Below, in pieces: positions 860 to 17,710 of a stretch of 64,000 bases of DNA. The first letter of the stretch is position 1, and every line of letters begins with the position of its first letter. The translations under genes and the position numbers were made by a program. Under the pieces are notes generated by a model, which saw only the letters and a program-made list of their open reading frames with translations, was not told the DNA's origin and searched no databases. The DNA is from a virus (lineage: Duplodnaviria; Caudoviricetes): positions 42,925-106,924 of the IMG/VR virus record IMGVR_UViG_3300042268_000478, one strand, 5' to 3'.

Positions 860-1110
860 ATCCCGATCCGTTCACGCTGCGCGAGCTATTGGCAATGACC
901 GAAGCTCGCGGGCGTTTCGAATGGGAACAGACCTCCAGCTTAATGGCACTTGTAGTCAATTTGACTCGCAATCCCAAGAAAAGCAAAGCGGCAAAGGCGA
1001 CGGATTTTAATCCGTATTACGTCAAACCCAAGCCAATAATCACGGCTCCGCTTTCAATGCTAAAAGACGTATTCGTCAGGCAGAAACAAACTCAACAACA
1101 GGAATCTTAA
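676..1110 (+). CDS. Tail assembly chaperone gpGT-like -1 frameshift extension (includes ORF 889..1110)
   Basis: The -1 frame is stop-free from 676 to TAA at 1110 (…VDQLISELAGICGLNPDPFTLRELLAMTEARG…); a TGA at 673-675 immediately precedes the heptamer. Confidence 0.65.
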   Translation, partial: FFPRGEAANPAKGTERHSSLPGKKQGGAERPARRPNAGQQNRRRIRTVDQLISELAGICGLNPDPFTLRELLAMTEARGRFEWEQTSSLMALVVNLTRNPKKSKAAKATDFNPYYVKPKPIITAPLSMLKDVFVRQKQTQQQES

Positions 1111-4100
1111 TGTCAATATCCAGTAATATCCGCGCGGGAGCGGCTTATGTCGAGGTTACCGCCGAGACAAGCAAGCTCCAACGTAATTTAACCCAGGCGC
1201 AAGCTCAGCTTTACAGCTTTGGGCGTACTGCCACCGCTATCGGCCGCGATTTGATGGTCGCTGCTGGGGCGATGGCTGTGCCGCTGGCGCTGTCGGTTAA
1301 AAGTTTTGCTAATTTTGACGATCAGATGCGGTTGGTTCGGGCAGTAACGAAAGCCACGGAAGATGACTTTGAGTCGTTGACCAAGACTGCTCAAAAGCTT
1401 GGTCGTGAGACCAGTTTCACCGCTTCGCAGGTGGCACAGGGCATGACCAGCTTGGGGCGCATGGGATTTTCTCCGCAGGAAATCCAGTCATCAATTCAGC
1501 CGGTACTTGATTTGGCGAGAGCAACCGGCACGGAGCTTGGCGAGGCATCCAATATCGCGGCGAACTCCATGCGGATTTTCGGAGTGGAGGCGTCGAAGAT
1601 GTCCAGCGTGGTCGATGTGCTGACGGCGGCGGCGAACGGTTCGGCGCAGACCTTGACTGATTTGTTCGAGGGACTGAAAATGACCGGGCCGCAAGCCAAA
1701 GCAGCAGGGGAGAATATCCAGGACACCGCTGCAGCATTGGGTGTTCTGGCCAACCTTGGGATTAAGGGTTCGCTGGCTGGCACAGCTTTGCGTAAATCCT
1801 ACTCAAGATTTGCCAAGGTCAAGGTGCGCGAGAAGCTAAAGGAAGTCGGGGTTGAAACCGCCGACGCCAACGGCAACTTGCGTAAAATGGCCGACATTAT
1901 GGCCGACTTGGGCAAGGTCATGAACGACTTGCCCACCGCTGAAAAGCTCGCCTTTGCCGAGGATATTTTCGATATTCGCGGTTCACTGGCTGGCTTGAGT
2001 TTGGGCGGTAACACCAAAGAGCTTGACGCATTTATTGCCAAGCTAAAGGACATCGATGGCACCGCCAGGCAGACCGCATCTGAAATGGATGCCGGGCTTG
2101 GCGGTTCGTTCCGCTTGTTTCGTTCTGCGGTCGAGGGCGCGATGAACGCTATTGGCAAGGCGCTTGAGGGAACGCTCCAGCCGTTTGTCGATAAGCTAAC
2201 CAGCGTAACCTTGGCGGTTGTTGAATGGATTGAAGCAAATCAAAGCATGGTAACAGGCTTTGCCGTGGCGGTTGCCGGGGCGGCGGCGCTGGGGGCTGGA
2301 TTGGTAGCCATCGGCATGGCGGCAAAGGCGGCTTCTGCAGGAATCAGCGTGGTTCAGGGTGTATTGCAAGGCTTTACTTTTGTACAGGGATTATTCGTTG
2401 CCAAAGGCACGGCGATGGGTTCTTCGATTTCCTTGCTGACTCAAGCGTTCGCCAATTATCGCAACGCCGCTATGCCTGCAATGGTCGGGACTTCAAAGCT
2501 GCTTGCGGCATTGAACTTGCCGATTGACTCGCGAGCTAAACAAATCGCTGCAGGTCTTATATTAATGAATAAGGCGGAAACCGCGTCGACTGCAAAATCC
2601 ATGCTGGCGGCAAAATGGGCGGCGGCAACAACCTCAATGAAAAATTTCAGCTTGGCAACCGTCGCCGCGACTGCAACCACCAAAGCAAATACCGCCGCTT
2701 CAATCATCGCTACTGGAATTTCCAAGGCATTAGCTGGAGCGAAAGCATTTGCCGCCGGGGCAATCGGATTATTTAGCGCGGCGAACATCAAAGCCGCAGC
2801 AGTTGCGACGGCTGGAGGGGCAACGAATTTGTTCCTTGCGGTTACGACCAAGGCGGTTGCGGCTGGATATTTGGCAGCAAGCGCAGCGGCGGCAGCGTTC
2901 TGCGCAATTCCGGTTTCTTGGATTTTGATTGGGATTGGGGCGGCACTGGCTGGAGTGGTTATTGCCTTGAGTCAGGCTGGCAAATACACCGCTCAACTCA
3001 CTGATAAAATGAGTAAGCTCCGTGAGAAAGGTGATCAGCAACGGCAGAGCGATCAGCTCCGCATGGAACGGCTTCAACAGCTTGCCGGAAAGCAAAAACT
3101 TTCCAATGCGGAGATGGCGGAAGCTGAAAAACTCTCCGGCGAATTGCAGAAAAAGTATGGTGACCTTGGCATATCCGTTGATAAAGTCGGCAACAAGCTC
3201 TCTATCGCCGCCGGGGCGCAAGGCAAGCTCAACGAGGCGATGAAAAAGGCTTCATTGGCTGAACTTGACGCTGAGATGGCTGAAATAAGAGCCAACCTTA
3301 AGGAGCTTGGCAAAGAGAACGAGGCTCTGCAATCCTATTGGAACAATAATTTGTGGAGTCAGATGTCAGGTCGTCAGCAAGAGGCGATGGACAAGCTCGA
3401 AGTCAATTCCAATAAAGCTGCGGCAATGCGTACCAAGCTTGGAGCGTTGCGTCAGCGTAAAAAAGCGATTGAGGGCGGCGACCAGAAAGCCGTCACTGGT
3501 GAAGACGGCAAATCTACTCAAGATAAGGTGGAAGAACACAAAACCCAGAGTAAAGCCGCTAAAGATGCCGCCGATGATGCGGCAAAGCGGGTAGCCGATA
3601 TCGACAAACAGCTTGCTCGGGAACGTCAGACTGAATTGCAAAATGAGATTGCTGATATTATCGCACTGCGGGACGAGTACAAGCAATTGATAAAAACCAT
3701 GCTCGACTTTGAAAAATCCAAAGCCGACGACAAGCAGGACAAAAAGAAAATTGCCGAGCTTGAGGGCAAGCTTGCCGAGGCAGACCGCACCGCCAATCAG
3801 CGAGTAAAAGAGGCTCAAGGCAAGGCGCGAGAGAAAATGGAAAAGGATGTTGCGGATTATCAAAACCGCTTTGCATCTAACGAAAAATCCATCAAACAAC
3901 GCCGCACGGAACAAGCTCAAGACCGCAAGATTGACGAAACGCTTGAGAACGACAAAGGCGCTGGAATCGAAATGCTCCAAGGCATGATTGAACAGTACCG
4001 CCAAGCCGCTGAAGCCGCTAAAATCCAGTTCCAGGAGGAGCTTAAAAAAGCGCAGGCTGACGGTACAATTGACGATAAAGAGCGCGCCAAGCTGGACAAT

Positions 4101-4355
4101 ATCCAAGCTGGCTACAGTCAAGCAGAATCAATGCTCGACAAGTATGAGGGTAAACTCCGCGAGGCGCAGGACGGTACGCAACAGGTAGCCGAGGATGTAA
4201 AACCGCAAGGGGCTTTCCTGGCGGCGGCGCTTTCAAATATTGGCGAAAGTTCAGCGGCTGACCGTACCGCCAAGGCGACCGAATCGGTGGCAAGCAACAC
4301 CAAAAAAACAAACGATTTAATCAAAAAGAACTCAGGTATGGGAGTATTTACATAA
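1110..4355 (+). CDS. Tail tape measure protein (TP901-family core)
   Basis: 1081 aa; TSFTASQVAQGMTSLGRMGF, GIKGSLAGTALR motifs; Ala-rich and coiled-coil regions. Confidence 0.95.
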   Translation: MSISSNIRAGAAYVEVTAETSKLQRNLTQAQAQLYSFGRTATAIGRDLMVAAGAMAVPLALSVKSFANFDDQMRLVRAVTKATEDDFESLTKTAQKLGRETSFTASQVAQGMTSLGRMGFSPQEIQSSIQPVLDLARATGTELGEASNIAANSMRIFGVEASKMSSVVDVLTAAANGSAQTLTDLFEGLKMTGPQAKAAGENIQDTAAALGVLANLGIKGSLAGTALRKSYSRFAKVKVREKLKEVGVETADANGNLRKMADIMADLGKVMNDLPTAEKLAFAEDIFDIRGSLAGLSLGGNTKELDAFIAKLKDIDGTARQTASEMDAGLGGSFRLFRSAVEGAMNAIGKALEGTLQPFVDKLTSVTLAVVEWIEANQSMVTGFAVAVAGAAALGAGLVAIGMAAKAASAGISVVQGVLQGFTFVQGLFVAKGTAMGSSISLLTQAFANYRNAAMPAMVGTSKLLAALNLPIDSRAKQIAAGLILMNKAETASTAKSMLAAKWAAATTSMKNFSLATVAATATTKANTAASIIATGISKALAGAKAFAAGAIGLFSAANIKAAAVATAGGATNLFLAVTTKAVAAGYLAASAAAAAFCAIPVSWILIGIGAALAGVVIALSQAGKYTAQLTDKMSKLREKGDQQRQSDQLRMERLQQLAGKQKLSNAEMAEAEKLSGELQKKYGDLGISVDKVGNKLSIAAGAQGKLNEAMKKASLAELDAEMAEIRANLKELGKENEALQSYWNNNLWSQMSGRQQEAMDKLEVNSNKAAAMRTKLGALRQRKKAIEGGDQKAVTGEDGKSTQDKVEEHKTQSKAAKDAADDAAKRVADIDKQLARERQTELQNEIADIIALRDEYKQLIKTMLDFEKSKADDKQDKKKIAELEGKLAEADRTANQRVKEAQGKAREKMEKDVADYQNRFASNEKSIKQRRTEQAQDRKIDETLENDKGAGIEMLQGMIEQYRQAAEAAKIQFQEELKKAQADGTIDDKERAKLDNIQAGYSQAESMLDKYEGKLREAQDGTQQVAEDVKPQGAFLAAALSNIGESSAADRTAKATESVASNTKKTNDLIKKNSGMGVFT

Positions 4356-5182: not shown

Positions 5183-5251
5183 CCAGAACAAGTTCTGGAC
5201 TTCGAGAAAATCCTCATGGATTTTCCGTACTTTTTAGGAGAGTGAATTATC

Positions 5252-6112: not shown

Positions 6113-6537
6113 GCGAGGGTTCAAATAAATTATGGCTGCATCACGAAAACAAACGGCTCATTCGCAAAGAGAAAAACGGCAAGTTGGTCATTTGTTGGGT
6201 TTGCCCGTGCTGTGAGCCGAAAGTCATTGCTTCAAAGATTACCAACAGCCGTTACGAATCGCAAAAACGCTGGAATCTGCGTCCGTATCAGGGTGATAAG
6301 GTTGGCTTGCCGGGCGCAAGATGGCGACTCCGGGATGTGGGCGAAGCTCATCACAACAACCCGGACGCAAACTGTAGTGGAACCCAGTACAACAGCGGCA
6401 TAGTCGATGAAAACGGCAAGCTGGTCGGTCTGCCCGACGAGTTCGTTTCCAGCTATTCATACAACGGCTATATGCAACTTCAACAGGGGTGCATTCGTGA
6501 GGACGGCAACATCGAATGGCCGTGTCCCAATGGATAA
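6109..6537 (+). CDS. Cys-rich tail-tip accessory protein
   Basis: N-terminal KLW…CPC segment shared with 61613..62476; start overlaps upstream stop. Confidence 0.5.
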   Translation: MSEGSNKLWLHHENKRLIRKEKNGKLVICWVCPCCEPKVIASKITNSRYESQKRWNLRPYQGDKVGLPGARWRLRDVGEAHHNNPDANCSGTQYNSGIVDENGKLVGLPDEFVSSYSYNGYMQLQQGCIREDGNIEWPCPNG

Positions 6538-6552
6538 AAACAGAGGATTTCA

Positions 6553-7293
6553 ATGTTCAAATTTAATGAAAAAACTTACAATCACATGCCGTTTGCGGCT
6601 TACGATAAAGACGTCAATGCAAAGCAATTTTGCTGTTTGATGATTAACGGTTTGTGGAAGTTGCATCACTTCGACGGCGAAAGCTGGCAACGGATAAACA
6701 CACATCTCCCGAAGGATGCAACCGAGTGTTCACCGACCGCTGAATGGGAGGACTGCATGTGGAAGATTTCATTTGTCGCTGGAGGCTTCGAGGGTGGTCG
6801 GCAGTTCAAGCTCTACCGTATGTTGGGGCTGAATGGCACACCAATGGAGCAATGCCCGGCTGATGTTGGCTTTGTGTGGAAAGACCGCATCGCCTATGCC
6901 GGACGGCGCGGGCCGCTGTTCGTCATCGATCCCGAACAGCACATGGAGATAAAATTTCACAACGTCGAATTTCTCTACCGGGTTTCCTATGATGCAAGCA
7001 ATCCGCGAATGCTGCTGATTTCAGGTCAGTTGCATGGCGGCGAGATTTTCTCTTGGGCGTATCATCCGGAGATGAACCGGCTCTTTGAAGTCATTGCCGA
7101 TGGTCGAGTCGCCTACAAAGCCGCGAGTTGGAATAGCGACTGTTACTACGCTGAACGTCGGGGTGGCGACGATTTCGAGGAACGCCATATCCGTAAAGCT
7201 CAACATCTGCAACTCAAACCTTTTATTGTGGATGAATATGTCTCGCTGAATATCGAAAATACAGCAAGCGACATAGCACCGGAGTTTGAATAA
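6553..7293 (+). CDS. Hypothetical protein (beta-rich)
   Basis: 246-aa ORF with GAGGA SD in the tail operon. Confidence 0.55.
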   Translation: MFKFNEKTYNHMPFAAYDKDVNAKQFCCLMINGLWKLHHFDGESWQRINTHLPKDATECSPTAEWEDCMWKISFVAGGFEGGRQFKLYRMLGLNGTPMEQCPADVGFVWKDRIAYAGRRGPLFVIDPEQHMEIKFHNVEFLYRVSYDASNPRMLLISGQLHGGEIFSWAYHPEMNRLFEVIADGRVAYKAASWNSDCYYAERRGGDDFEERHIRKAQHLQLKPFIVDEYVSLNIENTASDIAPEFE

Positions 7294-7655
7294 TGAGTTG
7301 TAATTGTCATGGCAAAAACGGTGTCAGCGTCGGCAGAACTTCTCCCTATGACCAATGTAGTAGTTGTGCAAAGAAGCACATTGTCAAGGCGTGGAGTCTG
7401 TGGAATGAATTTACTTACCTTGATGACAACCGCGATACGATATCGGGGCAACTCCGGCTGGCGGTGGATCATCTGATGTACGATCACCGCGATACTGCGC
7501 TCAAGGCTCGTAATTTAGCAATGCTCATTGAGGAAAACCGAGATAAAGAAATTGGCAGTCAATGGCAAGAGCTACTTGAGGCGGTTCGGGGACATTTTTA
7601 TGCCGATAATCCGCGAATGGCAAAACGGCTAAACAAACTTAAAGAGGAAAGATAA
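7293..7655 (+). CDS. Hypothetical protein (CxC…CxxC, helical)
   Basis: TAATG coupling to upstream gene. Confidence 0.55.
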   Translation: MSCNCHGKNGVSVGRTSPYDQCSSCAKKHIVKAWSLWNEFTYLDDNRDTISGQLRLAVDHLMYDHRDTALKARNLAMLIEENRDKEIGSQWQELLEAVRGHFYADNPRMAKRLNKLKEER

Positions 7656-7656
7656 T

Positions 7657-9057
7657 ATGCAACAGGTGCAAATGTATTTAAGGGCGAATTCGACCTTGGC
7701 TACGCTGGTTGATGAGTTCAATCAGACGCTGTCGTCGTCGAGCGTCCCGGCGATTGTGCGGGGGATGCAGGTTGAATTGATTTTGACTTTGCTTGATCGT
7801 GACGGCGAACCTTATTCACCACTGGATTTCGATTCATGGGAGTTCGTACTGGCAACCGACTGGGATGCTGGAACACCACCGCAAATCTTGGTAAATTCAG
7901 GTATTACTATTGACGGTAGCAACGTCCATGTGCCGATTCTGAACACCAACACCGCTGAACTTGCGGCGGCATTGTCGACAAAGGAATCAATCAAAATTGG
8001 CGCTGAACTCTGTGGATTTAATGCAGGAGAAACCACTCCAGCATTTGTTTTACAGTTCAATCTTGGCATCCGCAACCGGCGCAGTTCGTCAGGCACCGGC
8101 ACGGCTGAACCTGTCGGCGACGGAACTTACAGCGCGGCGCAGGTTGATGCGTTGTTCGCCGCCGGATACGATGTTCAATTCTCAATCGACGGCGAAACTC
8201 TCTGGCATGAAGAACAGCTCTTTGGCGACCAGTATTTTCGCATCCGCAATGCGGCATATGAAAACAGCGCCTATTCTGACGCAATCCAGCTTCTACCCGG
8301 AGCCATCGGCGAACCCGGCGAGAGTTCTTACATCTACGTTGCCTGGGCAACCGCCGATGACGGGACTGGATTTGTCACTGAACCGGGCAACCTGACCAAC
8401 GCACACAAATACATCGCGTTCCTGGTCAGCGAGGTTGAAACCGCAGAGCTTTCCGCATCGGATTTTGCCGGACTATGGACAAAATATCGCGGTGAAGATG
8501 GCCAAGGCGTGGGTGATATGACCAAGGCGGTCTATGATTCAGATGACGACGGCAAGGTAAACGCCGCCGTCCATGCCGACAGCGCTGGAGCCGTTGACTG
8601 GTCTAACGTCGGCAACAAACCATCGGAGTTTACGCCTGAAGTTCACAATCACAGCATAGCGACATTGTCCGACCCGGTGAGGCAGAAAGCCGTCACCGAA
8701 AGCAACCCGGCAACGCTGTATGTCGATACGCCGATTATCCGCAAAAGTTCGCATAGCAGTTCAACGCTGAATATTGATTTTACCGCGATAAAAGACACGT
8801 TCGACGGTGAAGCTTATTCCGTGGTCAATGGAGATTTTTTCACTTGGGAATATCACGTTCCGGCGTCTGTGAATATTACCGGGATAATCGTTGGTTCGCT
8901 CAATTCGACCATGACTGGCATCAGCATCCCGGAGGCAATTGATCTGATTGGTGGCAATAACACCGTCCATGTCTTTGCGGTGCGCGGAGTCTATAAATCC
9001 GGGGCAGTAAACAATCTTGCTTTGCAGGTCAACTATGCCTACAGTTATGAGGGGTGA
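7657..9057 (+). CDS. Baseplate-upper/tail fibre protein
   Basis: N-terminal ~200 aa homologous to 62800..end (PxIVRG, ELC, LQFNLxIRNRR, GYxxQFSxDG); GDMTKAVYDxDxDGKV and HxH fibre motifs. Confidence 0.75.
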   Translation: MQQVQMYLRANSTLATLVDEFNQTLSSSSVPAIVRGMQVELILTLLDRDGEPYSPLDFDSWEFVLATDWDAGTPPQILVNSGITIDGSNVHVPILNTNTAELAAALSTKESIKIGAELCGFNAGETTPAFVLQFNLGIRNRRSSSGTGTAEPVGDGTYSAAQVDALFAAGYDVQFSIDGETLWHEEQLFGDQYFRIRNAAYENSAYSDAIQLLPGAIGEPGESSYIYVAWATADDGTGFVTEPGNLTNAHKYIAFLVSEVETAELSASDFAGLWTKYRGEDGQGVGDMTKAVYDSDDDGKVNAAVHADSAGAVDWSNVGNKPSEFTPEVHNHSIATLSDPVRQKAVTESNPATLYVDTPIIRKSSHSSSTLNIDFTAIKDTFDGEAYSVVNGDFFTWEYHVPASVNITGIIVGSLNSTMTGISIPEAIDLIGGNNTVHVFAVRGVYKSGAVNNLALQVNYAYSYEG

Positions 9058-10580
9058 GCATGGCAAAAATTCCATTTAAATTCAACCCGCTTGGCTGTAA
9101 AAATCTGACGGTCAACTCTGCTCGATACGGTACGGCTGGAGTGTTCAACTACCTTTCAAACGGACGTTGCAATCAGAGCGCGATGCAGATTTCAGGGACG
9201 GTTTTGCTGTCTCATCGGGTCTATTCGCAGTATCTGTTTTCAGGCGGCACGGCGACTCAAACCGAGATTAACTATGGCGCAAGACAGTACGTCAGCGGCG
9301 GCACGGCGATCAGCGCGGCGGTCAATTCAAACGGATATCAATATGTTTATTCAGGCGGCGCGACGCAGGAAGCCAAGGTCAATTACAGCGGACGCAAGAT
9401 TGTCAGCAACGGCGGCACGGCGGTAAGTGCGCAGGTTGCTTCGCGTGGTTACATGAGCGTTTGTTCAGGCGGTCAAGCCCACGGCGCAGTAGTCAGTTAC
9501 GGCGGTTATATCTATTTGAGCAACGGCGCTTACGCGAGCGGAGTTGAGATTAAATCCAACGGTAGCGTGTACCTCAACGGCGATTGTGAAGCGATCGACA
9601 CCATAATTTCAAGCGGTGCGCAGTTTATCGTCAACAACAGCCAGCGGGCAAATGGCGTAAATGTTCAGAGCCAAGGCAGATTTTATGTATCGTCGGGCGG
9701 TACTGCTTTGAATGTCAGTGCGCAACCCAACTCCTACATTATCGCCGGAATTTACGGCTATGATGAACGGACGGTAGTCGATGGTTCGCACGAATCCGGC
9801 GCATTCAGCTTGAGCGATGGGGTTGCAAATAACTGGCTGATTTACGGCGACCGCCAGTATGTCTATTACGGTGGGACGGCAATTTCAACCACGCTTCATT
9901 CGGGCGGCTCGCAGGTGGTTTCATTCGGCGGCGTTGCCAGCGATACCATCGCCAATTCCTACGGCAGATTATATGTCTACAGCTCGGGAACGGCGAAAAA
10001 TCCAATCGTTAGTTCGGGCGGTTACATGGAACTTCAGCAAGGCGGCATCGGCGAAAATATCACGCTTGAAAGCTATGCGTCGATGGGAGTTTATCAATTT
10101 TCGTTCGCTTCCGGCACGGTGATGTCCAGCCGCTCGTATCAGTATGTTTCGCTTGGAGCGTCATCGGTTGATGCAGTGATTATGTCGGGTGCGACCCAGT
10201 TTATTTCACAGGCATCTTATGCCAGCGGCACGGTGATTTCAAGCGGCGGTTATCAGGTGCTGTCTTACGGTGGGCAAGCCTACGACACAGTAATCTCGCC
10301 GGGCGGTCAGCAACGGATTTCGCACTACTGCACCGCAGGAGGATTGTCGGTATGTTCAGGCGGTCGCGGCTATTGCTACAGCCAAAGCGTCGCCAACTCC
10401 GTGACCATCGACGAGGGCGGCTACTATGACCTTGGTGCACACTGCAAAGGCTCGATTTATCACGTCGCTTTGGGAGGGACATTGAACGTCGGCAACAATG
10501 CCAGTGCTTTGGCGGTGACATCCGAAGCTGGAGCAGTAGTCAACAGCGGAACAAGTTCATTTATCGAATACACAACATAA
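9054..10580 (+). CDS. AIDA-I/TibA-like beta-helix repeat protein lacking signal peptide and autotransporter barrel
   Basis: Many ~19-aa repeats of the type V.SGG.Q.V.SGG.A..T plus an AIDA-type GAFSLSDGVANN insert; ends …SFIEYTT with no barrel; ATG at 9060 may be the true start. Confidence 0.85.
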   Translation: MSMAKIPFKFNPLGCKNLTVNSARYGTAGVFNYLSNGRCNQSAMQISGTVLLSHRVYSQYLFSGGTATQTEINYGARQYVSGGTAISAAVNSNGYQYVYSGGATQEAKVNYSGRKIVSNGGTAVSAQVASRGYMSVCSGGQAHGAVVSYGGYIYLSNGAYASGVEIKSNGSVYLNGDCEAIDTIISSGAQFIVNNSQRANGVNVQSQGRFYVSSGGTALNVSAQPNSYIIAGIYGYDERTVVDGSHESGAFSLSDGVANNWLIYGDRQYVYYGGTAISTTLHSGGSQVVSFGGVASDTIANSYGRLYVYSSGTAKNPIVSSGGYMELQQGGIGENITLESYASMGVYQFSFASGTVMSSRSYQYVSLGASSVDAVIMSGATQFISQASYASGTVISSGGYQVLSYGGQAYDTVISPGGQQRISHYCTAGGLSVCSGGRGYCYSQSVANSVTIDEGGYYDLGAHCKGSIYHVALGGTLNVGNNASALAVTSEAGAVVNSGTSSFIEYTT

Positions 10581-10588
10581 GGACAAAA

Positions 10589-11824
10589 ATGCAAAATCTA
10601 ACCATAAAATGCGGTGCGCAGCCAAGCGCACCAGAGGTACGACAGCCTCCAGTCTTTGCGCCGCCGCCTGAACAGCTCACGCAAGAAGCGGTTGAGGAAA
10701 TCAGATTTGATTATAATGACGGCGTGAGGGTTTCGTTTCCCAAATCGGGCAAGTACCGCTGTATGCTGACTGATATGGACAGCGGGGCGGTAGTCTATAA
10801 CATGGACGTTGAACCGGGGGTAACCGTTGCGAGTGTGAAGAAGTTTTTTGTGCCGTACAGAATCGATATTTTTGGAACTAAATCCAAGAAAAACGTGTTT
10901 TTTCACGACTTTAATCCGAAAAACAGAGATGTGCTGGTGCAAATCCCAATCGGGACGCTCGGCGACACTATTGCCTGGTTTTCCTACGTCGAGCGTTTTC
11001 AGCAAAAACATCAATGCCGATTACATGTGTCGATGGCTCCTTGGATTGCGGAGATTTTCAAGACTCAATATCCCGATATTCACTTCATTACGATGGATGA
11101 GGCTGCAAAACTCAAGCCGTATGCAACCATCAATCTCGGGCTGTTTTTTCAGGACAACACAGATAATCAGCCGGTTGATTTTCGTCAGGCAGGCTTGCAT
11201 AAAACCGCCGGGTGCATTCTCGGGCTGGATGACCTATCAGAAGTACCACCAAGGGTGGATTTGTCAGCGCTACGCTCAATCAAAGAGCCGTATGTGGTGA
11301 TAGCGACGCAAGCAAGCAGTCAGGCAAAATACTGGAACAACCCCAACGGCTGGCACGAGGTCATCGCTTATCTGAAATCTAAAGGCTACCGGGTGCTGTG
11401 CATCGACAAAAATCGAGTCTGCGGCGCCGGTGTGGTGTGGAATCATATTCCGCATGGGGCTGAGGACTTTACAGGCGATTTGCCGTTGCAGAAGCGCATT
11501 AATCTTATCAAAGATGCCGACATGTTCATCGGCTTGAGTTCGGGATTGAGCTGGTTGGCGTGGTGCTGCAAAGTTCCGGTACTGCTCATCAGCGGATTTA
11601 CCGCCGAAAACAACGAATTTCACACGCCGTACCGGGTAATAAACCATCGTGTCTGCCATTCCTGCTGGAACGATATGCGCTGCGATTTCGACCACTTCGA
11701 CTTTCTGTGGTGTCCGCGCCACAAGAACACCGAACGGCAATTCGAATGCACAAAATTCATCACGCCGAAAATGGTAATCGATAAAATTAAAATCATCAAA
11801 CACGGAGGCAAATCATGCAAATAG
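10589..11824 (+). CDS. tibC: Autotransporter O-heptosyltransferase (Aah/TibC, BAHT family)
   Basis: RFDYNDGVRV N-terminal region, catalytic GTLGD, QAKYWNNP, FIGLSSGLSWLAW, and iron-finger CHSCWND…WCPRH…QFEC all intact. Confidence 0.93.
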   Translation: MQNLTIKCGAQPSAPEVRQPPVFAPPPEQLTQEAVEEIRFDYNDGVRVSFPKSGKYRCMLTDMDSGAVVYNMDVEPGVTVASVKKFFVPYRIDIFGTKSKKNVFFHDFNPKNRDVLVQIPIGTLGDTIAWFSYVERFQQKHQCRLHVSMAPWIAEIFKTQYPDIHFITMDEAAKLKPYATINLGLFFQDNTDNQPVDFRQAGLHKTAGCILGLDDLSEVPPRVDLSALRSIKEPYVVIATQASSQAKYWNNPNGWHEVIAYLKSKGYRVLCIDKNRVCGAGVVWNHIPHGAEDFTGDLPLQKRINLIKDADMFIGLSSGLSWLAWCCKVPVLLISGFTAENNEFHTPYRVINHRVCHSCWNDMRCDFDHFDFLWCPRHKNTERQFECTKFITPKMVIDKIKIIKHGGKSCK

Positions 11825-12057
11825 ATCAGTACGGCTTTGAGGCGAGAAGCATGTTTTTTCAACGCAAACAACTCCAGCCTTACCGGGTTGTGGAGACCGC
11901 GTCGGCAACTTTTATGTGTTTCGGCGACGAACCGCAACGCCCGATTCACCGCATCACGAAAAACGGCACGGAGACCGTTGTTGAGTGGGCGTTCGGGGCG
12001 TGGAACGACAAAGAAACCCTTGCTTATGTGCCAATCAATCAAACCTTGGAGGTGTAG
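11815..12057 (+). CDS. Hypothetical protein
   Basis: GGAGG SD; overlaps heptosyltransferase stop. Confidence 0.6.
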   Translation: MQIDQYGFEARSMFFQRKQLQPYRVVETASATFMCFGDEPQRPIHRITKNGTETVVEWAFGAWNDKETLAYVPINQTLEV

Positions 12058-12060
12058 AAT

Positions 12061-12549
12061 ATGGACACAAAATTCGATTCTTTGCTTGGGCAGATGCGCG
12101 AATCCGACGGTTCAGGCGGCGAAATTAACTACACCATCAACGGTCAGGAGCCAGACGAAAGCGGTAATTTTGCCGTTACGGCCGCCGGGGTCGGTGCGGC
12201 TGAGGATGTTCATGCTCACATTATCGCTGACGTTACCGGTCTGCAAAGTGCTTTGGACGACAAATCTGATGCCGAACACAGTCACGAGCTTGTTGGCTCG
12301 GTGGCGGTTGGCGGCGAAACCGTCAGCGGCGAGATTACTTTGGAGGCGTCGGACAATATTCTGTTATCCGCTTCCGGTCAGGAAATAACCATCACCGGCG
12401 AACCATATGCCGTCACCGTCGCCGCATCGATTCCCGATTCCAATACCAGTAATACCGAACCGGTCAAAATCTTTTCAGGCACGCAGGCTGACTGGGATGC
12501 TTTCACGCCCGAAAGCAACGTCCGTTATGTGGTTTTCATTCATGAATAG
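12061..12549 (+). CDS. Short tail-fibre-like protein (HxH repeat)
   Basis: TINGQEPDESGNF and HAHIIADVTGLQSALDDK…HSH fibre motifs. Confidence 0.7.
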   Translation: MDTKFDSLLGQMRESDGSGGEINYTINGQEPDESGNFAVTAAGVGAAEDVHAHIIADVTGLQSALDDKSDAEHSHELVGSVAVGGETVSGEITLEASDNILLSASGQEITITGEPYAVTVAASIPDSNTSNTEPVKIFSGTQADWDAFTPESNVRYVVFIHE

Positions 12550-12555
12550 GGAGGC

Positions 12556-12990
12556 GTGATGCTTTACACAATAAACAATATTTACCCGGATATGAATTTC
12601 GCCTTTACCTTGACCGCGGGGACTTTGGGACTGGCTCCGCTGGCGCATACTCACGGCATTGGCGATATAAGCCAGCTTGCCGACGAACTTAACGGTAAAG
12701 CTGATGGCGGGCATCAGCACGAGGCGGTTCCGGCAGTAATCGTCGACCGGGATCGGTTGACTGGGAATATAACTCTAACCGGCGCTGGTTCAGTCGCCGC
12801 AAATAAATCGGGTTCAATTATAACCATCGCTTCAGCCCCGGCTCAATCCGGCAATGTCGCGGCGTTCCGCAACGCCAATCCGGCAAGACGGCACACCATG
12901 CTCAAACTCTTTTTCGGCGACTGCCGCAGCATCGACAGCGATTCAGAAAACTTAATTTTTACGGAGGACAGCAATGCTCCAGCATCTTGA
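12556..12990 (+). CDS. Short tail-fibre-like protein (HxH repeat), paralog of upstream gene
   Basis: HTHGIGDISQLADELNGK…HQH; colinear with 12061..12549. Confidence 0.65.
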   Translation: MMLYTINNIYPDMNFAFTLTAGTLGLAPLAHTHGIGDISQLADELNGKADGGHQHEAVPAVIVDRDRLTGNITLTGAGSVAANKSGSIITIASAPAQSGNVAAFRNANPARRHTMLKLFFGDCRSIDSDSENLIFTEDSNAPAS

Positions 12991-15900
12991 CAAACAGCGG
13001 GGAACAGGTATAAAAAATCTCTTGCTCGCTAACGACGCCAATGAAACCACGGTAAAAAAAGTGCTTTCATACACTTCTGCCGAAGGCGAAAAACAGCTCT
13101 GGCCAAACGCGCCGACGCATCTGCGTATTGAGTCAAATTACGATGACTCGACCGCCGTCAGAATCGAAAACGGCAAAATCTATGGTCATCCGGTAATTGA
13201 TCCGGGCAGCGACCTTTACAAGCCGTTGGAAATCACCGTCACGCCGTTCCCCATAAATTCCGCATGGACGCTGGAAGCGGAGAATTTCGACCTTGGGCAA
13301 CACGCCGGTAAAATGTTCCACGGTAAACAAACCGTCACTTTTGATGTGTCTGTACCGTCCGTCGTCGGGCATTTTCTGCACCGGATCAGCGCCGTGCCGA
13401 ACGCCGGTGAAGCAGAACGAGCCGTTTTCAGTTTCTGGAGCGTGAAGTTTTCCGAATCCGCACTGATCCCTAAACACTGGTGGAGTTTTGATGACGAAAC
13501 CCTTGCAGACCAGGTTGGAAACATGCCGCTGGTCAAGGAGACCACCGAGGGGACGACCACCTACACCGACGGAGTAAGGCGCAAGGCGTTGCAGGCTATT
13601 TACGTCAACGGCGCGACTGAACCAAACACCTACCGGGCTACAGTCAATCCATCCATGGCAAACGGCTTGAGCCTCAGCATGTTCGGGCAAATCAACCGGG
13701 GCGGCAGTTTTGGTTTTGTTGATTTAAATGATTACAACGCCACCAACGGCAATCATTTCGCCTTTAACTGGTATTATCGGCAACCGATTAATCTGCTTCT
13801 GGACGGATACGGCACCACGACACCGGAATCAACCGCATATGACCGCCTTGAACAAGGCGAATGGCATCATCTGGCGTTGACCATGTCGCCGCAAATTGAT
13901 TTGGCTAATCATCCCGATATTGAGGTTGACTACAGCGAAAACCAGTACGGCACAATTCGCTATGCCTCGCCGCATGTTGACTACAGCACAGAATGGGTCT
14001 GTGATTATTACAACAATTATTTAACACAGGAGTTTTACCTGGCGAAGTTCTATATTGACGGCGTGCTTCATTCCGAAAAGCTCATGAGCTTTTGGCCTGG
14101 AGGTTTCAATACTCCCGGCAACGGCGTGATAACATTAGATTTCAACAATTCTAATGAACAGGACGGTTATTATCCTGACCGAGTCGATGAACTTAAAGTC
14201 TTTGAACATGAGTTGTCGTTAGCGGAAATCCGCGGCGAATGTTCGTTGATTGGCTTGCAGTTTGAGAGCGACAACCCGACCGAGGGCGGCGGTGTAACTG
14301 TAGAGCCAATCGAACGCTCCGGGCGCAGTCGCGACGGCGAACCACCGGACATTGCCGCCGTGCCGCTGGACTGTCGACTCAAGGCGTTTGTGATTGACAA
14401 TCAGACCATCGCCGTCGGCGGCAACTTCCGCGATTTTTTCCTTGAGCGGCTGGAGACGGAGTTTCCTAACCTTGACGCGACCGAGTTCAATTTTCGCAAT
14501 GGTTTTTCGCACCGCTGGAGCCGGGACTTCAACTACCTCTATAATATGTGGGAGCTGTACCGCGACTATCAGCCGTTAATTGTTGCGGCGATGGACGATG
14601 CAAGCAACTGGTCGGTTGACAACTCACCGGTGACGATGCTCGGGCGCTGGCAGAACTCCACCGGGCTGATGCGCTTCGGCGACGCTTACGACGGCACGGA
14701 CGTTGTCACCACCGATTGCGCCGATATTGTTCATTTTGCCTACTTGCGTTTGCCGCAGCCAATGACCGAGGAGAGTTCACATGCAGTGGATTGGAACGGC
14801 AATCAGCTTGATTTTAGCTATTCGCGCGATAAAGCGGCAAGCAGCATCAAGGTGAATCAGGAGGGCTATCTACCCGAGGCCAGGCGCAAGTACGCCTACT
14901 TTGGCACATGGCTCGGAACCGGAGGCGCGTATCAACATTCGTTGAACGATCTGACCTTTCATTTAGTTCCGGTCGGCTCGACAATTCCGGCGTTCACCGG
15001 AACGATGACCAGGCGTAACACCGCTGAAACCCACACGCAGGGCGACGTGACTTTCCAGCTTACCGGCGAGGAAACTTACGTCTGCGATTTTTCCGCATTT
15101 CAAACCGAGGGTGATTATCAAATCCATATCCCGTCGGTCGGCTACAGCCATGTGTTCAAAGTCGGCAAAGCCGCTCTCGGCAAGGCGTTCTGGACGCATT
15201 GCCGGGGCATGTTCCATCAGCGTTCGGGCTGTGATTCGGTGGTCAATCCGTACACAAACTGGGAGTTTCCTGGAGCGGCACACTACTGGACGTGGGAGTC
15301 GAATTTCATCTGCGACGACCAGAGTTACAACAACTGCGCCACGGTCGACGGCACGACCTACGGCGAAATATTCCCGCAACGGCATTTTTCAATGATTCCG
15401 AATAACGTCACCGGCAAACTTTACCGCGATTTGCGCGGCGGCTGGTTCGACGCGGCCGACTTTGACCGCAGGCCCTACCACTTCTACTGCGTCCGGGATT
15501 TGGTTGAGGCGTATTTGCGCTTTCCGCAGAATTTCACCGACAGCCAGCTTGACCTGCCCGAAAGCGGCGACGGCATACCCGACGTCCTTTCGGAAGCTGA
15601 ATGGGGCTTGGACGTCTGGCGTCGGGCGCAGAAAACCAACGGTGGCGTGGCCTGCTGGATTGAGGCAGACGGACACGAATCAGGCTGGCCGTGGGAGTCG
15701 GATAGAAAGTATTACATCGGCATGCCGAACCGTAAGGACTCGTTGGAGTACGCTCAATGCGCTGCCAAGTTTGCCCGCGCTTTGCGGCTTGCCGGTACTC
15801 CGTCGGCATTGGCCAAGGCCGACGTTTACACCGAATCGGCCGTCAGGGCGTTTAACTTCGGTATTAATCCGGTCAACGCCGCCACGCTGGAGTTTACTCA

Positions 15901-16882
15901 AACCAACAGCTCAAACAGTCAGTTTGACTTCAGCTACACCGAAGCGGCGGAGCGCGCCGACTGGCATATCGTTCCCGCCGCTGCGGCATTGCTGGCGCTG
16001 ACCCGCGAGCCGAGGTTCGCCAAACATGTCACCGAATCGGCATGGGACAATTATTTCAGCTCATTGCAAGGCGATGAGAATAATTTTGCTCAGCGATGCT
16101 GTACGGAACTGCTGTTTGATTTGACGGCGAATTTCCCGGACTATTCAAAGGCTCTGCGTGAGTTTATCATCGCCAAGGCCGACCAGTGGCAAGGCTATCA
16201 GGAGCAGCAACCGTATTTCGAGATGAACTGGCCGCCGAACCATCAATTTTACCAGTATGTAAGTTGGGGCGTGGGACATCCTGAAAAGCGCGGCAAAGCC
16301 TTTATCTACGCATGGCTGGTGACCGGCGACGACTCGTACCGGGACTCGGCGTTGCTGGCGATGGACAACTTTGCTGGGTGCAACCCGATGGGCAGGAGTT
16401 TGACCACCGGGCTTGGGAAAGTGTCGCCGATTCATTTCCTCAACAGTTGGTTGCCTCGGGCTGAAATTGAACTCGGATTGCACGAACCGGTGCCGGGCAT
16501 TACGCCGTATACCTATATCGGCGACGGCGCAGGCAAAAGCACATCGCACGGGTTCTGTTTGTGGAAAGGCGCGAGGACGGATTTTGGTTTCGACGAAATG
16601 ACCCAAAACATCCTGCCCGGTGGCTACAGCCAAACGGTCGCGCCGTCGCGCGGCAACGTCGCCCAGTGGTTGCAAATCAACTGGCCGTTGTGGCGGCACG
16701 TGTTCGAGCTTGAGGCGTACAATGTCGCCCAAAGCGAATTCACAGTCAGTGAGACCGTCAGCGGTAAAGCCTTTATGGCCGGATGCCTGATGGGCAGCGG
16801 CGTTACGCCCGATCCGGCATGGAAAACCGCCAGCCCGGCAACCGAAAGATACGAGCCGGAAGGCTTGGTCTATTTACCATAA
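12974..16882 (+). CDS. LamG/ConA-like + Ig-like + glycoside hydrolase family 9 protein (putative tail depolymerase)
   Basis: HWWSFDD, GEWHHLALT, VDELKVF (LamG); IKVNQEGYLP (CelD-like Ig); GGWFDAAD, PESGDGIPDVLSEAEWGL, GCNPMGRS..TGLG, SEFTV (GH9). Confidence 0.85.
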   Translation: MLQHLDKQRGTGIKNLLLANDANETTVKKVLSYTSAEGEKQLWPNAPTHLRIESNYDDSTAVRIENGKIYGHPVIDPGSDLYKPLEITVTPFPINSAWTLEAENFDLGQHAGKMFHGKQTVTFDVSVPSVVGHFLHRISAVPNAGEAERAVFSFWSVKFSESALIPKHWWSFDDETLADQVGNMPLVKETTEGTTTYTDGVRRKALQAIYVNGATEPNTYRATVNPSMANGLSLSMFGQINRGGSFGFVDLNDYNATNGNHFAFNWYYRQPINLLLDGYGTTTPESTAYDRLEQGEWHHLALTMSPQIDLANHPDIEVDYSENQYGTIRYASPHVDYSTEWVCDYYNNYLTQEFYLAKFYIDGVLHSEKLMSFWPGGFNTPGNGVITLDFNNSNEQDGYYPDRVDELKVFEHELSLAEIRGECSLIGLQFESDNPTEGGGVTVEPIERSGRSRDGEPPDIAAVPLDCRLKAFVIDNQTIAVGGNFRDFFLERLETEFPNLDATEFNFRNGFSHRWSRDFNYLYNMWELYRDYQPLIVAAMDDASNWSVDNSPVTMLGRWQNSTGLMRFGDAYDGTDVVTTDCADIVHFAYLRLPQPMTEESSHAVDWNGNQLDFSYSRDKAASSIKVNQEGYLPEARRKYAYFGTWLGTGGAYQHSLNDLTFHLVPVGSTIPAFTGTMTRRNTAETHTQGDVTFQLTGEETYVCDFSAFQTEGDYQIHIPSVGYSHVFKVGKAALGKAFWTHCRGMFHQRSGCDSVVNPYTNWEFPGAAHYWTWESNFICDDQSYNNCATVDGTTYGEIFPQRHFSMIPNNVTGKLYRDLRGGWFDAADFDRRPYHFYCVRDLVEAYLRFPQNFTDSQLDLPESGDGIPDVLSEAEWGLDVWRRAQKTNGGVACWIEADGHESGWPWESDRKYYIGMPNRKDSLEYAQCAAKFARALRLAGTPSALAKADVYTESAVRAFNFGINPVNAATLEFTQTNSSNSQFDFSYTEAAERADWHIVPAAAALLALTREPRFAKHVTESAWDNYFSSLQGDENNFAQRCCTELLFDLTANFPDYSKALREFIIAKADQWQGYQEQQPYFEMNWPPNHQFYQYVSWGVGHPEKRGKAFIYAWLVTGDDSYRDSALLAMDNFAGCNPMGRSLTTGLGKVSPIHFLNSWLPRAEIELGLHEPVPGITPYTYIGDGAGKSTSHGFCLWKGARTDFGFDEMTQNILPGGYSQTVAPSRGNVAQWLQINWPLWRHVFELEAYNVAQSEFTVSETVSGKAFMAGCLMGSGVTPDPAWKTASPATERYEPEGLVYLP

Positions 16883-16904
16883 TAACCAACAAAATGGAGG
16901 ATTT

Positions 16905-17327: not shown

Positions 17328-17329
17328 AC

Positions 17330-17704
17330 ATGTTCAAAATCATCATCACACTTAGTCTTATCATAGTTATCACGGGATGTTCCCACAATGTTTCAACTTA
17401 TTCGGACGGTGTCGGGCTTGAAACCACATTCCGGCCGGATTCGGGCAACTTCGGGATAATCCTGCGCTACGGCAAAATTTGGAACCTTGTCGCCCGCGAA
17501 AACACCGAAGCCGAAATGACAGGTTCAAATGAACTCGATGCCAAGGGCAATCCGGTAAGTGGCAAAACCGACGGCAACGTAAAAATCAAAATCGGCACGC
17601 AGACCACCGGCTACGAGCGCGACGTTATCAAACTGCTCAAGGACAACCCCGAGGCAATCAAGGCATTTTACGATTCAAAGAATCAGGTAAATTCAAAGCC
17701 CTAA
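17330..17704 (+). CDS. Lipoprotein (possible spanin/lysis accessory)
   Basis: Hydrophobic N-terminus with lipobox ITGC. Confidence 0.65.
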   Translation: MFKIIITLSLIIVITGCSHNVSTYSDGVGLETTFRPDSGNFGIILRYGKIWNLVARENTEAEMTGSNELDAKGNPVSGKTDGNVKIKIGTQTTGYERDVIKLLKDNPEAIKAFYDSKNQVNSKP

Positions 17705-17710
17705 ATCCCC

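What the first reader, a model, noticed from the sequence alone, without database searches (positions are those of the whole stretch)
9054..11824. Prophage tail operon encodes an autotransporter heptosyltransferase and a barrel-less AIDA-repeat substrate: candidate virion heptosylation system
Seen: a 508-aa protein made almost entirely of ~19-aa Ser-rich AIDA-I/TibA-type repeats, with no signal peptide and no autotransporter barrel. Eight bp later comes an Aah/TibC-family enzyme with intact GTLGD catalytic motif and four-Cys iron finger. The pair overlaps the genes on both sides (9054/9057 and 11815/11824), sits among tail-fibre genes, and leaves no room for its own promoter or terminator, so it looks like part of the late operon rather than a moron. 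Known: Aah/TibC enzymes transfer heptose from ADP-heptose onto Ser residues of exactly these repeats in bacterial autotransporter adhesins, and adhesion depends on it. Inference: the phage co-opted the adhesin passenger as a tail appendage and heptosylates it in the cytoplasm using host LPS precursor, for adsorption, stability or immune masking. I know of no described phage virion heptosylation.
Basis: partly seen in the sequence, partly recalled or inferred. Interest (0 to 1): 0.92.

Follow-up and report, generated by a model that had tools for sequence, protein, structure and literature searches.

The report
Phage tail fibre with own heptosyltransferase
A family of phages of gut and digester Lentisphaerota carries, between its tail-fibre genes, a rod-shaped protein built from adhesin-type repeats together with the enzyme that in E. 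coli attaches heptose sugars to such repeats, so these phages probably sugar-coat one of their own tail fibres, which has not been described for any phage.

Summary
Window 9060-10580 (the GTG at 9054 is probably not the start) encodes a 506-aa AIDA/TIGR04415-repeat protein with no signal peptide and no barrel. Window 10589-11824 encodes a canonical TibC/Aah heptosyltransferase (TIGR04414, 553 bits). It keeps the catalytic Asp, the sugar-binding residues, the four-Cys iron finger and the thumb.

The pair lies in one tightly packed, same-strand tail operon. It has the operon's GC content and no promoter or terminator signal above chance.

The new result is comparative. The pair, with the C-terminal half of the upstream fibre-like protein (7657-9057), forms a conserved three-part cassette:
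- It occurs in 46 distinct phage, prophage or metagenome loci, including contigs of Victivallales MAGs.
- TibC follows in 32 of 32 loci with enough sequence.
- The repeat protein's conserved N- and C-terminal ends occur only in phage copies.
- The phage enzymes group apart from the 76 chromosomal ones.
- One related tail module lacks the whole cassette.

Presence in virions and heptosylation are still inferred.

No paper found describes this. Virion glycosylation is known in mycobacteriophages. This scan earlier noted fused TibC-like domains in lake phages on other DNA, but not this standalone enzyme with a true AIDA-repeat partner.

The parts
7657..9057 (+). 466-aa fibre-like adaptor protein (P0003). 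The N-terminal part (1-223) is shared with collagen-like tail fibres of sister phages. The C-terminal part (227-465) is found only directly upstream of the repeat protein and enzyme.
   Evidence: Residues 1-223 match the N-terminus of L161:15120-17021, which matches PHROG tail-fibre families at 8e-66, and of the L165 fibre. Residues 227-465 precede the pair even in L173/L290, where the N-terminal part is different. There are no Pfam or PHROG hits. The monomer model is poor, pLDDT 40.
9060..10580 (+). It is predicted to be one long right-handed beta-helix with a conserved, phage-specific N-terminal peptide of about 55 aa and a phage-specific C-terminal cap. It is the proposed heptosylated tail fibre.
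   Evidence: Pfam AIDA 1.8e-30 and TIGR04415 9e-37. The AlphaFold model has pLDDT 84.8: beta-helix over residues 38-508, residues 1-38 disordered. The best structural matches are Ag43 4KH3 (5e-15) and TibA 4Q1Q (5e-13). Both ends hit only phage-context copies: 17 phage-context ORFs for each end, no chromosomal ORFs. No signal peptide and no barrel.
10589..11824 (+). 411-aa TibC/Aah-family protein O-heptosyltransferase (BAHT), a standalone canonical form.
   Evidence: TIGR04414 at 552.6 bits against a cut-off of 200. 459 bits to TibC 4RB4. The catalytic Asp, sugar-binding residues, iron-finger cysteines and thumb are present and invariant in all 11 phage copies checked. Ser317 sits at the position of TibC Pro300, as in Aah.
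11815..12057 (+). 80-aa protein of unknown function that overlaps the end of the enzyme gene. It follows the enzyme in a subset of related phages.
   Evidence: tblastn hits directly after TibC in L167/L170 (69%), L173 (45%), L175 (43%) and L002 (31%), and in L258, L260, L261, L268, L270, L289 and L290. No Pfam or PHROG family.
12061..12990 (+). Two small 'phage tail repeat' proteins (12061-12549 and 12556-12990). They are context: tail-fibre-type genes downstream of the cassette.
   Evidence: Pfam PTR PF12789 at 3e-06 and 7e-06. PHROG tail fibre phrog_8443. Conserved in L167 at 59% and 52%.
12974..16882 (+). 1302-aa protein with LamG-like, CelD_N Ig and GH9 domains, probably an enzymatic tail spike. 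It is context: the variable distal gene of the module.
   Evidence: Pfam GH9 1.3e-19, CelD_N 1.7e-10, Laminin_G_3 2e-04, the last below its cut-off. 63% identical over its full length in L167. Replaced by other fibres in L081, L083 and L161.
1110..4355 (+). Tail tape measure protein (context: marks the start of the distal tail genes).
   Evidence: PHROG tape-measure families down to 1.9e-75.

Best explanation
This is a three-part tail-fibre cassette of a temperate, siphovirus-like phage of Lentisphaerota (Victivallales-type hosts).

The parts:
1. P0003 (7657-9057) is an adaptor. Its N-terminal 220 residues are the same baseplate-anchoring module that sister phages use for collagen-like fibres. 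Its C-terminal 240 residues are specific to this cassette.
2. P0001 (9060-10580) is a beta-helical rod of about 470 residues built from AIDA/TibA-type 19-residue rungs. It was most likely derived from the barrel-less AIDA-repeat surface proteins of the host clade. It has gained phage-specific ends. One of these, most likely the conserved N-terminal peptide that is disordered on its own, docks it onto P0003.
3. P0002 (10589-11824) is a complete TibC/Aah-type heptosyltransferase.

How it works: all three are made late, with the tail genes. In the cytoplasm P0002 transfers heptose from host ADP-heptose onto serines in the SGG-type turns of P0001, before the fibre joins the tail.

What the sugar does: by analogy with AIDA-I and TibA, the heptose coat is needed for a stable, protease-resistant and binding-competent rod. 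The rod acts as an accessory adsorption fibre.

Shown: gene identities, residues, fold model, operon structure, cassette conservation and co-occurrence. Inferred: late expression, heptosylation of P0001, docking on P0003, presence in the virion, and a role in adsorption.
For: Enzyme:
- TIGR04414 at 552.6 bits and 459 bits to TibC.
- All residues shown by mutagenesis to be needed in TibC are present and invariant in 11 phage copies that are 59-94% identical to each other.

Substrate:
- AIDA and TIGR04415 repeats.
- A confident beta-helix model that matches Ag43 and TibA.
- 9 SGG motifs. TibC modifies the Ser of an NSGG turn (PMC4358343).

Operon:
- Same strand, gaps from -17 to +22 nt between 7293 and 17704, uniform GC and GC3.
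- Ribosome sites lie inside the preceding genes.
- No promoter or terminator excess.

Tail context:
- Tape measure, tail tube, PTR proteins and a GH9 protein surround the pair.
- The N-terminal domain of P0003 is shared with PHROG-recognised collagen-like tail fibres.

Conservation:
- Syntenic cassettes occur in a Victivallis vadensis MAG contig (L081), in other Victivallales or Lentisphaeria MAGs (L082, L083, L104) and in many IMG/VR contigs (L001, L161, L163, L164, L167, L173-L175, L190).
- There are 46 distinct P0003-C sequences. TibC is present in 32 of 32 with at least 2.3 kb of room. The repeat protein is next in 30 of 32 by tblastn, and in L190 it was found by blastp.
- 55 of 55 loci with the repeat protein's N-terminal peptide have P0003-C upstream.
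- L165, a related tail module, lacks all three parts together.

Phage-specific features:
- The ends of P0001 hit no chromosomal AIDA protein.
- In the tree, the 7 phage enzymes form one group (SH-aLRT 85) and the 76 chromosomal ones form one clade (99).

Sugar donor:
- Genomes holding related prophages have a full-length heptose-7-phosphate kinase-like gene (321-341 bits, cut-off 345) and gmhA-like genes.
- The phage record has no such kinase.
Against: - No experiment or expression data exist. No RNA run holds the stretch.
- P0001 has no similarity to any protein known to be in a virion. PHROGs gives only two families of unknown function.
- AIDA-type beta-helices are monomeric adhesins, whereas most tail fibres and spikes are trimers.
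- The proposed docking of P0001 on P0003 rests only on co-occurrence. The complex predictor was not available, and the P0003 monomer model is poor.
- The tree has long branches in the phage group, and that group's support is only 85.
- The hosts already carry many enzymes of this family, so it is not obvious why the phage needs its own.
- The promoter scan uses an E. coli-type consensus that may not fit Lentisphaerota.
Confidence: 0.6

Rival explanations
1. Lysogenic-conversion cargo (a moron). The pair is expressed from the prophage. It gives the host cell an extra heptosylated adhesin, or P0002 re-decorates the host's own AIDA-repeat surface proteins. It sits in the tail region only because cargo genes often lodge there.
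For: The host clade uses this enzyme family for large surface proteins: TibC is followed by 700-2500-aa AIDA-repeat proteins with RTX, PPC or peptidase domains. Prophage-encoded glycosyltransferases that change the cell surface are well known (general knowledge). One related phage does without the cassette (L165).
Against: - P0001 has no signal peptide, no RTX repeats and no barrel, so no visible export route.
- There is no separate promoter or terminator signal and no compositional break, and the reading frames are packed tightly together.
- The pair always travels with a fibre-adaptor domain.
- It lies between two tail-fibre genes in sister phages.
- The ends of P0001 are absent from chromosomal AIDA proteins.
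Confidence: 0.12
2. P0002 mainly glycosylates other phage structural proteins, such as P0003, the collagen-like or PTR fibres, or the GH9 spike. P0001 is a non-virion helper: a scaffold, chaperone or decoy.
For: In lake phages, fused TibC-like domains sit beside collagen-like fibres with no AIDA-repeat neighbour. This comes from earlier notes of this scan. My own HMM search found no AIDA-like ORF in L192-L245. In a rumen clade the chromosomal enzyme is followed by a GH9-like protein instead of an AIDA protein.
Against: In E. coli, canonical enzymes of this family recognise the AIDA-type beta-helix itself (cryo-EM of TibC12-TibA6, PMC4358343). P0001 is exactly that fold and lies directly upstream in every cassette. 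The downstream fibres vary between phages while P0001 stays. A protein of 506-690 aa with conserved ends is large for a helper.
Confidence: 0.1
3. P0001 is a tail fibre, but the enzyme's main job is on the host. It over-glycosylates or masks the host's AIDA-repeat surface proteins late in infection or in lysogens. This would block superinfection or stop progeny from sticking to debris.
For: The enzyme is 57-64% identical to the chromosomal enzymes of Victivallales. The chromosomal substrates share the middle repeats with P0001 at up to 46% local identity.
Against: Strict linkage of the enzyme to P0001 and P0003-C would not be needed for this role. Host cells already have their own enzymes next to each substrate. 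No data support it directly.
Confidence: 0.08

Closest known systems
TibC-TibA and Aah-AIDA-I of E. coli (bacterial autotransporter heptosyltransferases with self-associating autotransporter adhesins; PDB 4RAP, 4RB4, 4Q1Q; eLife 2014, PMC4358343)
   Same: The enzyme has the same domain order: N-terminal barrel, GT-B core, thumb and iron finger. It keeps all residues known to be essential. The substrate has the same 19-residue repeat and the same predicted beta-helix. The enzyme and substrate genes are adjacent, and modification would occur in the cytoplasm with ADP-heptose.
   Different: The substrate has no signal peptide and no translocator barrel. It is encoded upstream of the enzyme, not downstream. 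It has phage-specific ends. It sits inside a phage tail operon linked to a fibre-adaptor gene. The host is Lentisphaerota, not Proteobacteria.
Chromosomal TibC-like enzymes of Victivallales with giant AIDA-repeat proteins
   Same: The enzymes are 57-64% identical. The substrates share the middle repeats and also lack an autotransporter barrel.
   Different: The chromosomal order is enzyme first, then a 700-2500-aa protein with RTX, PPC or C10-peptidase domains. The chromosomal enzymes form a separate clade. They have no P0003-C neighbour and lack the phage-type ends.
Mycobacteriophage virion glycosylation (Freeman et al. 2023, Cell Host Microbe, PMC10527164; cited in PMC12619734)
   Same: A phage-encoded glycosyltransferase placed among structural genes and acting on the phage's own virion proteins.
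   Different: There the targets are the C-termini of the capsid and tail-tube subunits, the enzymes are unrelated, and the hosts are actinobacteria. Here the proposal is serine O-heptosylation of a dedicated repeat fibre by a TibC-type enzyme. I did not read the original paper, only a citing description.
Fused TibC-like domains of large freshwater phages
   Same: A TibC-related catalytic domain with GD motif and four cysteines, encoded by phages.
   Different: Those are only 32-43% identical. They are usually part of proteins of about 700-930 aa with other enzyme domains. Some lack three residues in the thumb region. They have no AIDA-repeat neighbour. They form the outgroup in the tree.
Beta-helical phage tailspikes (HK620, Sf6, P22 type)
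   Same: A right-handed beta-helix encoded in a tail module.
   Different: The structural match is only weak (Foldseek E about 1e-3, against 5e-15 for Ag43). Tailspikes are trimeric enzymes with wide rungs and catalytic grooves. P0001 has the narrow, regular adhesin-type rungs.

Membership tests
BAHT (TibC/Aah autotransporter O-heptosyltransferase, TIGR04414) | Score above the curated family cut-off | tested here: met
   552.6 bits against a cut-off of 200, covering profile positions 2-373 of 374.
BAHT (TibC/Aah autotransporter O-heptosyltransferase, TIGR04414) | N-terminal flattened beta-barrel domain plus a GT-B (GT9) catalytic core | tested here: met
   PF21129 TibC_1st at 63 bits (cut-off 27) and PF01075 at 42.8 bits (cut-off 22). 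The alignment to TibC residues 8-380 has no large gaps.
BAHT (TibC/Aah autotransporter O-heptosyltransferase, TIGR04414) | Catalytic base Asp110 and sugar-binding Arg286, Trp305, Lys230, Thr226 | tested here: met
   D126, R303, W322 and K247 are present, with S243 in place of the Thr. All are invariant in 11 phage copies.
BAHT (TibC/Aah autotransporter O-heptosyltransferase, TIGR04414) | Four-cysteine iron finger (Cys339, 342, 358, 370) | tested here: met
   C356, C359, C375 and C387 align to them. Iron binding itself was not tested.
BAHT (TibC/Aah autotransporter O-heptosyltransferase, TIGR04414) | Beta-hairpin thumb with a hydrophobic tip (Phe265, Val266, plus Phe368) that builds the dodecamer | tested here: met
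   V282, V283 and F385 align without gaps. The tip is less hydrophobic in sister phage and chromosomal copies (YV, YT, IN, LN). Dodecamer formation is not testable here.
BAHT (TibC/Aah autotransporter O-heptosyltransferase, TIGR04414) | Transfers heptose from ADP-heptose to serines of an AIDA-type beta-helix | not testable with these tools
   Needs co-expression and mass spectrometry.
Self-associating autotransporter adhesins (AIDA-I, TibA, Ag43) | Imperfect repeats of about 19 residues that form a right-handed beta-helix | tested here: met
   PF16168 at 1.8e-30 and TIGR04415 at 9e-37. The model matches Ag43 and TibA structures.
Self-associating autotransporter adhesins (AIDA-I, TibA, Ag43) | N-terminal Sec signal peptide | tested here: not met
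   There is no hydrophobic stretch in the first 60 residues, judged by a hydropathy scan, not by a dedicated predictor.
Self-associating autotransporter adhesins (AIDA-I, TibA, Ag43) | C-terminal beta-barrel translocator domain | tested here: not met
   AIDA is the only Pfam family found. The protein ends in beta-helix rungs and the next gene is the enzyme. It is therefore not an autotransporter.
Phage tail fibre / virion protein | Encoded within the tail module and conserved there in related phages | tested here: met
Phage tail fibre / virion protein | Homology to a protein known to be in virions, or direct detection in particles | tested here: not met
   PHROGs gives only families of unknown function (phrog_21473 and phrog_30792). 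The INPHARED phage collection has no close relative. Detection in particles is not testable here.

The most novel reading that the evidence does not exclude
The phage fibre is a copy of the host's own self-associating adhesin module. It adsorbs by the same homotypic 'Velcro' contact that Ag43, AIDA-I and TibA use between cells. The heptosylated phage rod would pair with the heptosylated AIDA-repeat surface proteins of Victivallales cells. The phage carries its own enzyme so that its fibre bears the matching sugar coat. This would be receptor recognition by mimicry of the receptor, dependent on protein glycosylation on both sides.
Probability: 0.12. Interest if true: 0.85.

Novelty: new variant of a known kind. 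Interest (0 to 1): 0.68.

Why it matters
If true, this moves the TibC/Aah enzyme family out of its only known setting, bacterial autotransporter adhesins, and into virus particles. It would be the first case of a heptose-decorated phage tail fibre.

It also gives a compact, soluble and export-free enzyme-substrate pair (about 500 plus 410 residues). That pair could be used to study processive protein O-heptosylation or to build glycosylated beta-helix scaffolds.

For phage biology it adds a second, independent route to virion glycosylation besides the mycobacteriophage one. It suggests that phages of gut and digester Lentisphaerota borrow the host's adhesin chemistry for adsorption.

The cassette is widespread enough to be tested: 46 distinct versions in human gut, rumen, fermenter and digester data, including prophages in Victivallis MAG contigs.

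Tried and rejected
- The AlphaFold model of P0003 from a 7-sequence alignment was too poor to search with (pLDDT 40).
- The Atlas look-up for P0003 gave only weak leads: BppU_N or collagen-type phage proteins at scores 0.77-0.87 and TM at most 0.41. I do not count these as evidence.
- No RNA holder is listed for the stretch, so expression timing could not be checked.
- Megablast of window 1-20000 against 50,697 phage records found nothing. tblastn of P0001 found one weak fragment, MT836861.1 at 28%. tblastn of P0002 found only the fused lake-phage type.
- PHROGs gave no function for P0003, P0002, the 80-aa protein, or the genes at 4355-7655, 16905-17327 and 17330-17704.
- I considered a link between the enzyme and GH9 proteins, because a rumen clade has a GH9-like gene after TibC. 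I set it aside: only the GH9 catalytic part is shared (26-28%), and those proteins have signal peptides and no AIDA repeats.
- I considered that the contig might be a chimera at about 20 kb. Instead, a 511-nt contig of another run bridges the junction, and the junction is half of a tRNA gene.

Full report
**What is there.** On the + strand the window opens with the end of a tail-tube gene (15-368, PF06199). Two chaperone-like ORFs follow, then a 1081-aa tape measure (1110-4355) and five unassigned distal-tail genes (4355-7655). Next come:
- P0003 (7657-9057)
- the repeat protein P0001 (9054/9060-10580)
- the enzyme P0002 (10589-11824)
- an 80-aa ORF (11815-12057)
- two 'phage tail repeat' proteins (12061-12990)
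- a 1302-aa LamG/CelD_N/GH9 protein (12974-16882)
- two small ORFs, then an amidoligase and two GGACT genes (17920-19653)

Gaps between genes from 7293 to 17704 range from -17 to +22 nt. GC (0.46-0.54) and GC3 (0.45-0.65) are uniform. Promoter-like and terminator-like sites are no more frequent than in shuffled sequence: 14 against 15.3 expected, and 31 against 26.1. The record is a 106,924-bp IMG/VR virus record, and the window is its last 64 kb.

**The enzyme.** P0002 scores 552.6 bits on TIGR04414 (cut-off 200) and 459 bits on solved TibC. I mapped it onto the TibC numbering of the eLife 2014 paper (PMC4358343):
- the catalytic base is D126 (TibC D110, in GTLGD)
- the sugar-binding residues are R303, W322, K247 and S243
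- the iron finger is C356/C359/C375/C387
- the thumb tip is V282-V283, with F385

At the position that sets heptose stereoselectivity (TibC Pro300, Aah Ser294), P0002 has Ser317, as in Aah. It may therefore accept both ADP-heptose epimers; this is an inference. All these residues are invariant in 11 phage copies that are 59-94% identical to one another.

**The repeat protein.** P0001 matches AIDA (PF16168) and the 'O-heptosylation target' repeat TIGR04415. By homology and ribosome site it starts at ATG 9060. It has no hydrophobic N-terminus, no barrel and no RTX repeats, and it has 9 SGG motifs. With a 6-sequence alignment, AlphaFold gives a confident continuous beta-helix over residues 38-508 (pLDDT 84.8). 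The first 38 residues are disordered, although they are the most conserved part of the family. Foldseek ranks Ag43 and TibA first (E from 5e-15 to 5e-13). Phage tailspikes match only at about 1e-3.

**Where relatives are found.** The closest proteins to P0002 (57-64% identical) are almost all from Victivallales or Lentisphaeria MAGs of gut, rumen and digesters. They occur in two contexts:
- In most loci the enzyme comes first and is followed by a 700-2500-aa AIDA-repeat protein. These proteins carry RTX, PPC or C10-peptidase domains and no barrel. Barrel-less substrates are thus the norm in this host clade.
- In L081 (a 267-kb Victivallis vadensis MAG contig), L082, L083 and L104, and in IMG/VR contigs L001, L002, L161, L163, L164, L167, L168, L173-L175 and L190, the order is P0003-like, AIDA protein, enzyme. 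This sits inside a tail module syntenic with the window. The other tail proteins there are 30-75% identical. L167 matches the window gene for gene, including the GH9 protein at 63%.

Downstream of the enzyme the fibres differ between phages. Sister phages have a collagen-like fibre of 633-656 aa and a protein of about 720 aa.

**The cassette has three parts.** P0003 is modular:
- Residues 1-223 recur at the N-terminus of the collagen-like fibres of sister phages, which match PHROG tail-fibre families at 8e-66, and of the only fibre in L165.
- Residues 227-465 recur only directly upstream of the AIDA protein. This holds even in L173/L290, where they are joined to a different N-terminal part and the cassette is transcribed away from the baseplate genes.

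I scanned IMG/VR and JGI metagenomes with the P0003 alignment and pooled all loci. This gave 64 loci and 46 distinct P0003-C sequences. Of the 32 distinct sequences with at least 2.3 kb of room downstream, all 32 have the enzyme. Thirty have the AIDA protein detectably adjacent. For the other two, L190 has it by blastp, and L267 has an unassigned gap of 1.9 kb. All 55 loci with the AIDA N-terminal peptide have P0003-C upstream. L165 is a related module that lacks P0003-C, the AIDA protein and the enzyme together.

**Phage-specific features.** The first 58 and last 60 residues of P0001 each hit 17 phage-context ORFs and no chromosomal ORF, always at the extreme ends. The middle repeats hit 20 phage-context and 32 other ORFs, mostly chromosomal. 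I built a maximum-likelihood tree of 89 enzymes (quick IQ-TREE, LG+G4), rooted on the fused lake-phage type. The 76 chromosomal enzymes form one clade (SH-aLRT 99) and the 7 phage enzymes form one group (85). The phage branches are long, so this placement carries a caveat.

**Sugar donor.** Genomes that hold related prophages have a full-length rfaE-domain-I-type kinase gene at 321-341 bits (cut-off 345) and gmhA-like genes at about 90-110 bits (cut-off 209). The phage record has no such kinase. Use of host ADP-heptose is an inference.

**Reading.** The simplest account is a late-expressed accessory fibre. P0003 anchors to the baseplate through its shared N-domain and holds P0001 through its cassette-specific C-domain. 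P0002 heptosylates P0001 in the cytoplasm before assembly. What the sugar does (stability, protease resistance, binding) is taken by analogy from AIDA-I and TibA.

**Rivals.**
- The moron reading is weakened by the lack of any export signal, the tight operon, and the strict linkage to a fibre-adaptor domain.
- The 'other target' reading is weakened by the constancy of P0001 while the downstream fibres vary.
- The 'host target' reading does not explain the linkage.
- None of the three is excluded without experiments.

**Prior knowledge.** Full-text searches for heptosyltransferase, autotransporter, prophage, AIDA, tail fiber, heptosylation with phage, and Victivallis with prophage found no description of such a system. 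Virion glycosylation is established for mycobacteriophages (Freeman 2023, seen through PMC12619734). This scan's earlier notes report TibC-like domains fused to other enzymes in lake phages on other DNA. I saw the same group as loci L003-L080 and L192-L245. They are 32-43% identical, have no AIDA neighbour, and some have a shortened thumb region. The present case is distinct: a standalone canonical enzyme with a true AIDA-repeat partner and an adaptor.

**Setting.** The stretch is held by wastewater and bioreactor metagenome runs, and parts of it by oil-field runs. One run carries the first phage at about 30-fold depth up to position 20439 but nothing of the lower-GC region beyond 21020. Positions 20416-20463 are the 3' half of a tRNA gene on the minus strand, and loose ends in three runs continue into its 5' half. 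The integrase at 20596-21939 (GC 0.38) therefore belongs to a second element that inserted into a tRNA gene next to the right end of the first phage.

Noticed in passing
window 20416-20463 (and 20596-21939): There is a 48-nt 3' half of a tRNA gene on the minus strand. By eye it is tRNA-Pro, anticodon GGG. It marks the junction between the GC-50% phage and a second, GC-38-45% phage-like element that starts with an integrase. One wastewater run has the first phage at about 30x depth but none of the second. Loose ends in three runs continue into the tRNA's 5' half.
   Followed up: partly
window 12974-16882: A 1302-aa tail-module protein with LamG-like, CelD_N Ig and GH9 (cellulase-family) domains. 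It is conserved at 63% over its full length in L167 and replaced by other fibres in sister phages. It is probably an enzymatic tail spike against a beta-glucan-type surface polymer.
   Followed up: partly
L084-L160 (for example L088:11312-14890, L093:11198-15718, L116:3838-6084): Victivallales chromosomes hold many TibC-like genes, up to three in one 21-kb stretch (L157). Each is followed by a giant AIDA-repeat protein with RTX, PPC, PKD or C10-peptidase domains and no autotransporter barrel. This looks like a large, undescribed set of non-autotransporter heptosylation substrates.
   Followed up: partly
L103:11905-15513, also L108, L111, L113, L115, L117, L120, L121: In a rumen clade the chromosomal TibC-like gene is followed by a secreted GH9-like protein of about 1200 aa with a signal peptide and no AIDA repeats. 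It shares only the GH9 part (26-28%) with the window's tail protein.
   Followed up: partly
L003-L080, L192-L245 (IMG/VR): More than 500 viral contigs, mostly large freshwater phages, encode a TibC-related domain at 32-43% identity. It is usually the C-terminal part of proteins of about 700-930 aa, and there is no AIDA-repeat ORF nearby. Some have a 3-residue deletion in the thumb region.
   Followed up: partly
L173:1-9436 (same contig as L290): Here the cassette (adaptor with a different N-terminal part, AIDA protein, enzyme, 80-aa protein) is transcribed divergently from the baseplate genes. This suggests the cassette moves as a unit or lies on an inverted segment.
   Followed up: partly
L165:10001-16700: A related tail module that lacks the adaptor C-domain, the AIDA protein and the enzyme together. 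It goes straight from the 7293-7655 homologue to a 601-aa fibre with the shared N-terminal anchor.
   Followed up: partly
L137:831-2108: In a locus otherwise like L104, from the same MAG, the TibC-like gene is split into two ORFs (831-1718 and 1740-2108). This is a possible frameshift or assembly error.
   Followed up: no
window 17920-19653: An Amidoligase_2 gene followed by two gamma-glutamyl cyclotransferase-like (GGACT) genes, after a 215-nt gap at the right end of the phage. It is a peptide-ligase-type accessory cluster of unknown role.
   Followed up: no
window 368-1110: Two short ORFs (368-859 and 889-1110) lie between the tail tube and the tape measure. This is the usual place of the tail assembly chaperone pair made by a programmed frameshift. 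No slippery site was looked for.
   Followed up: no
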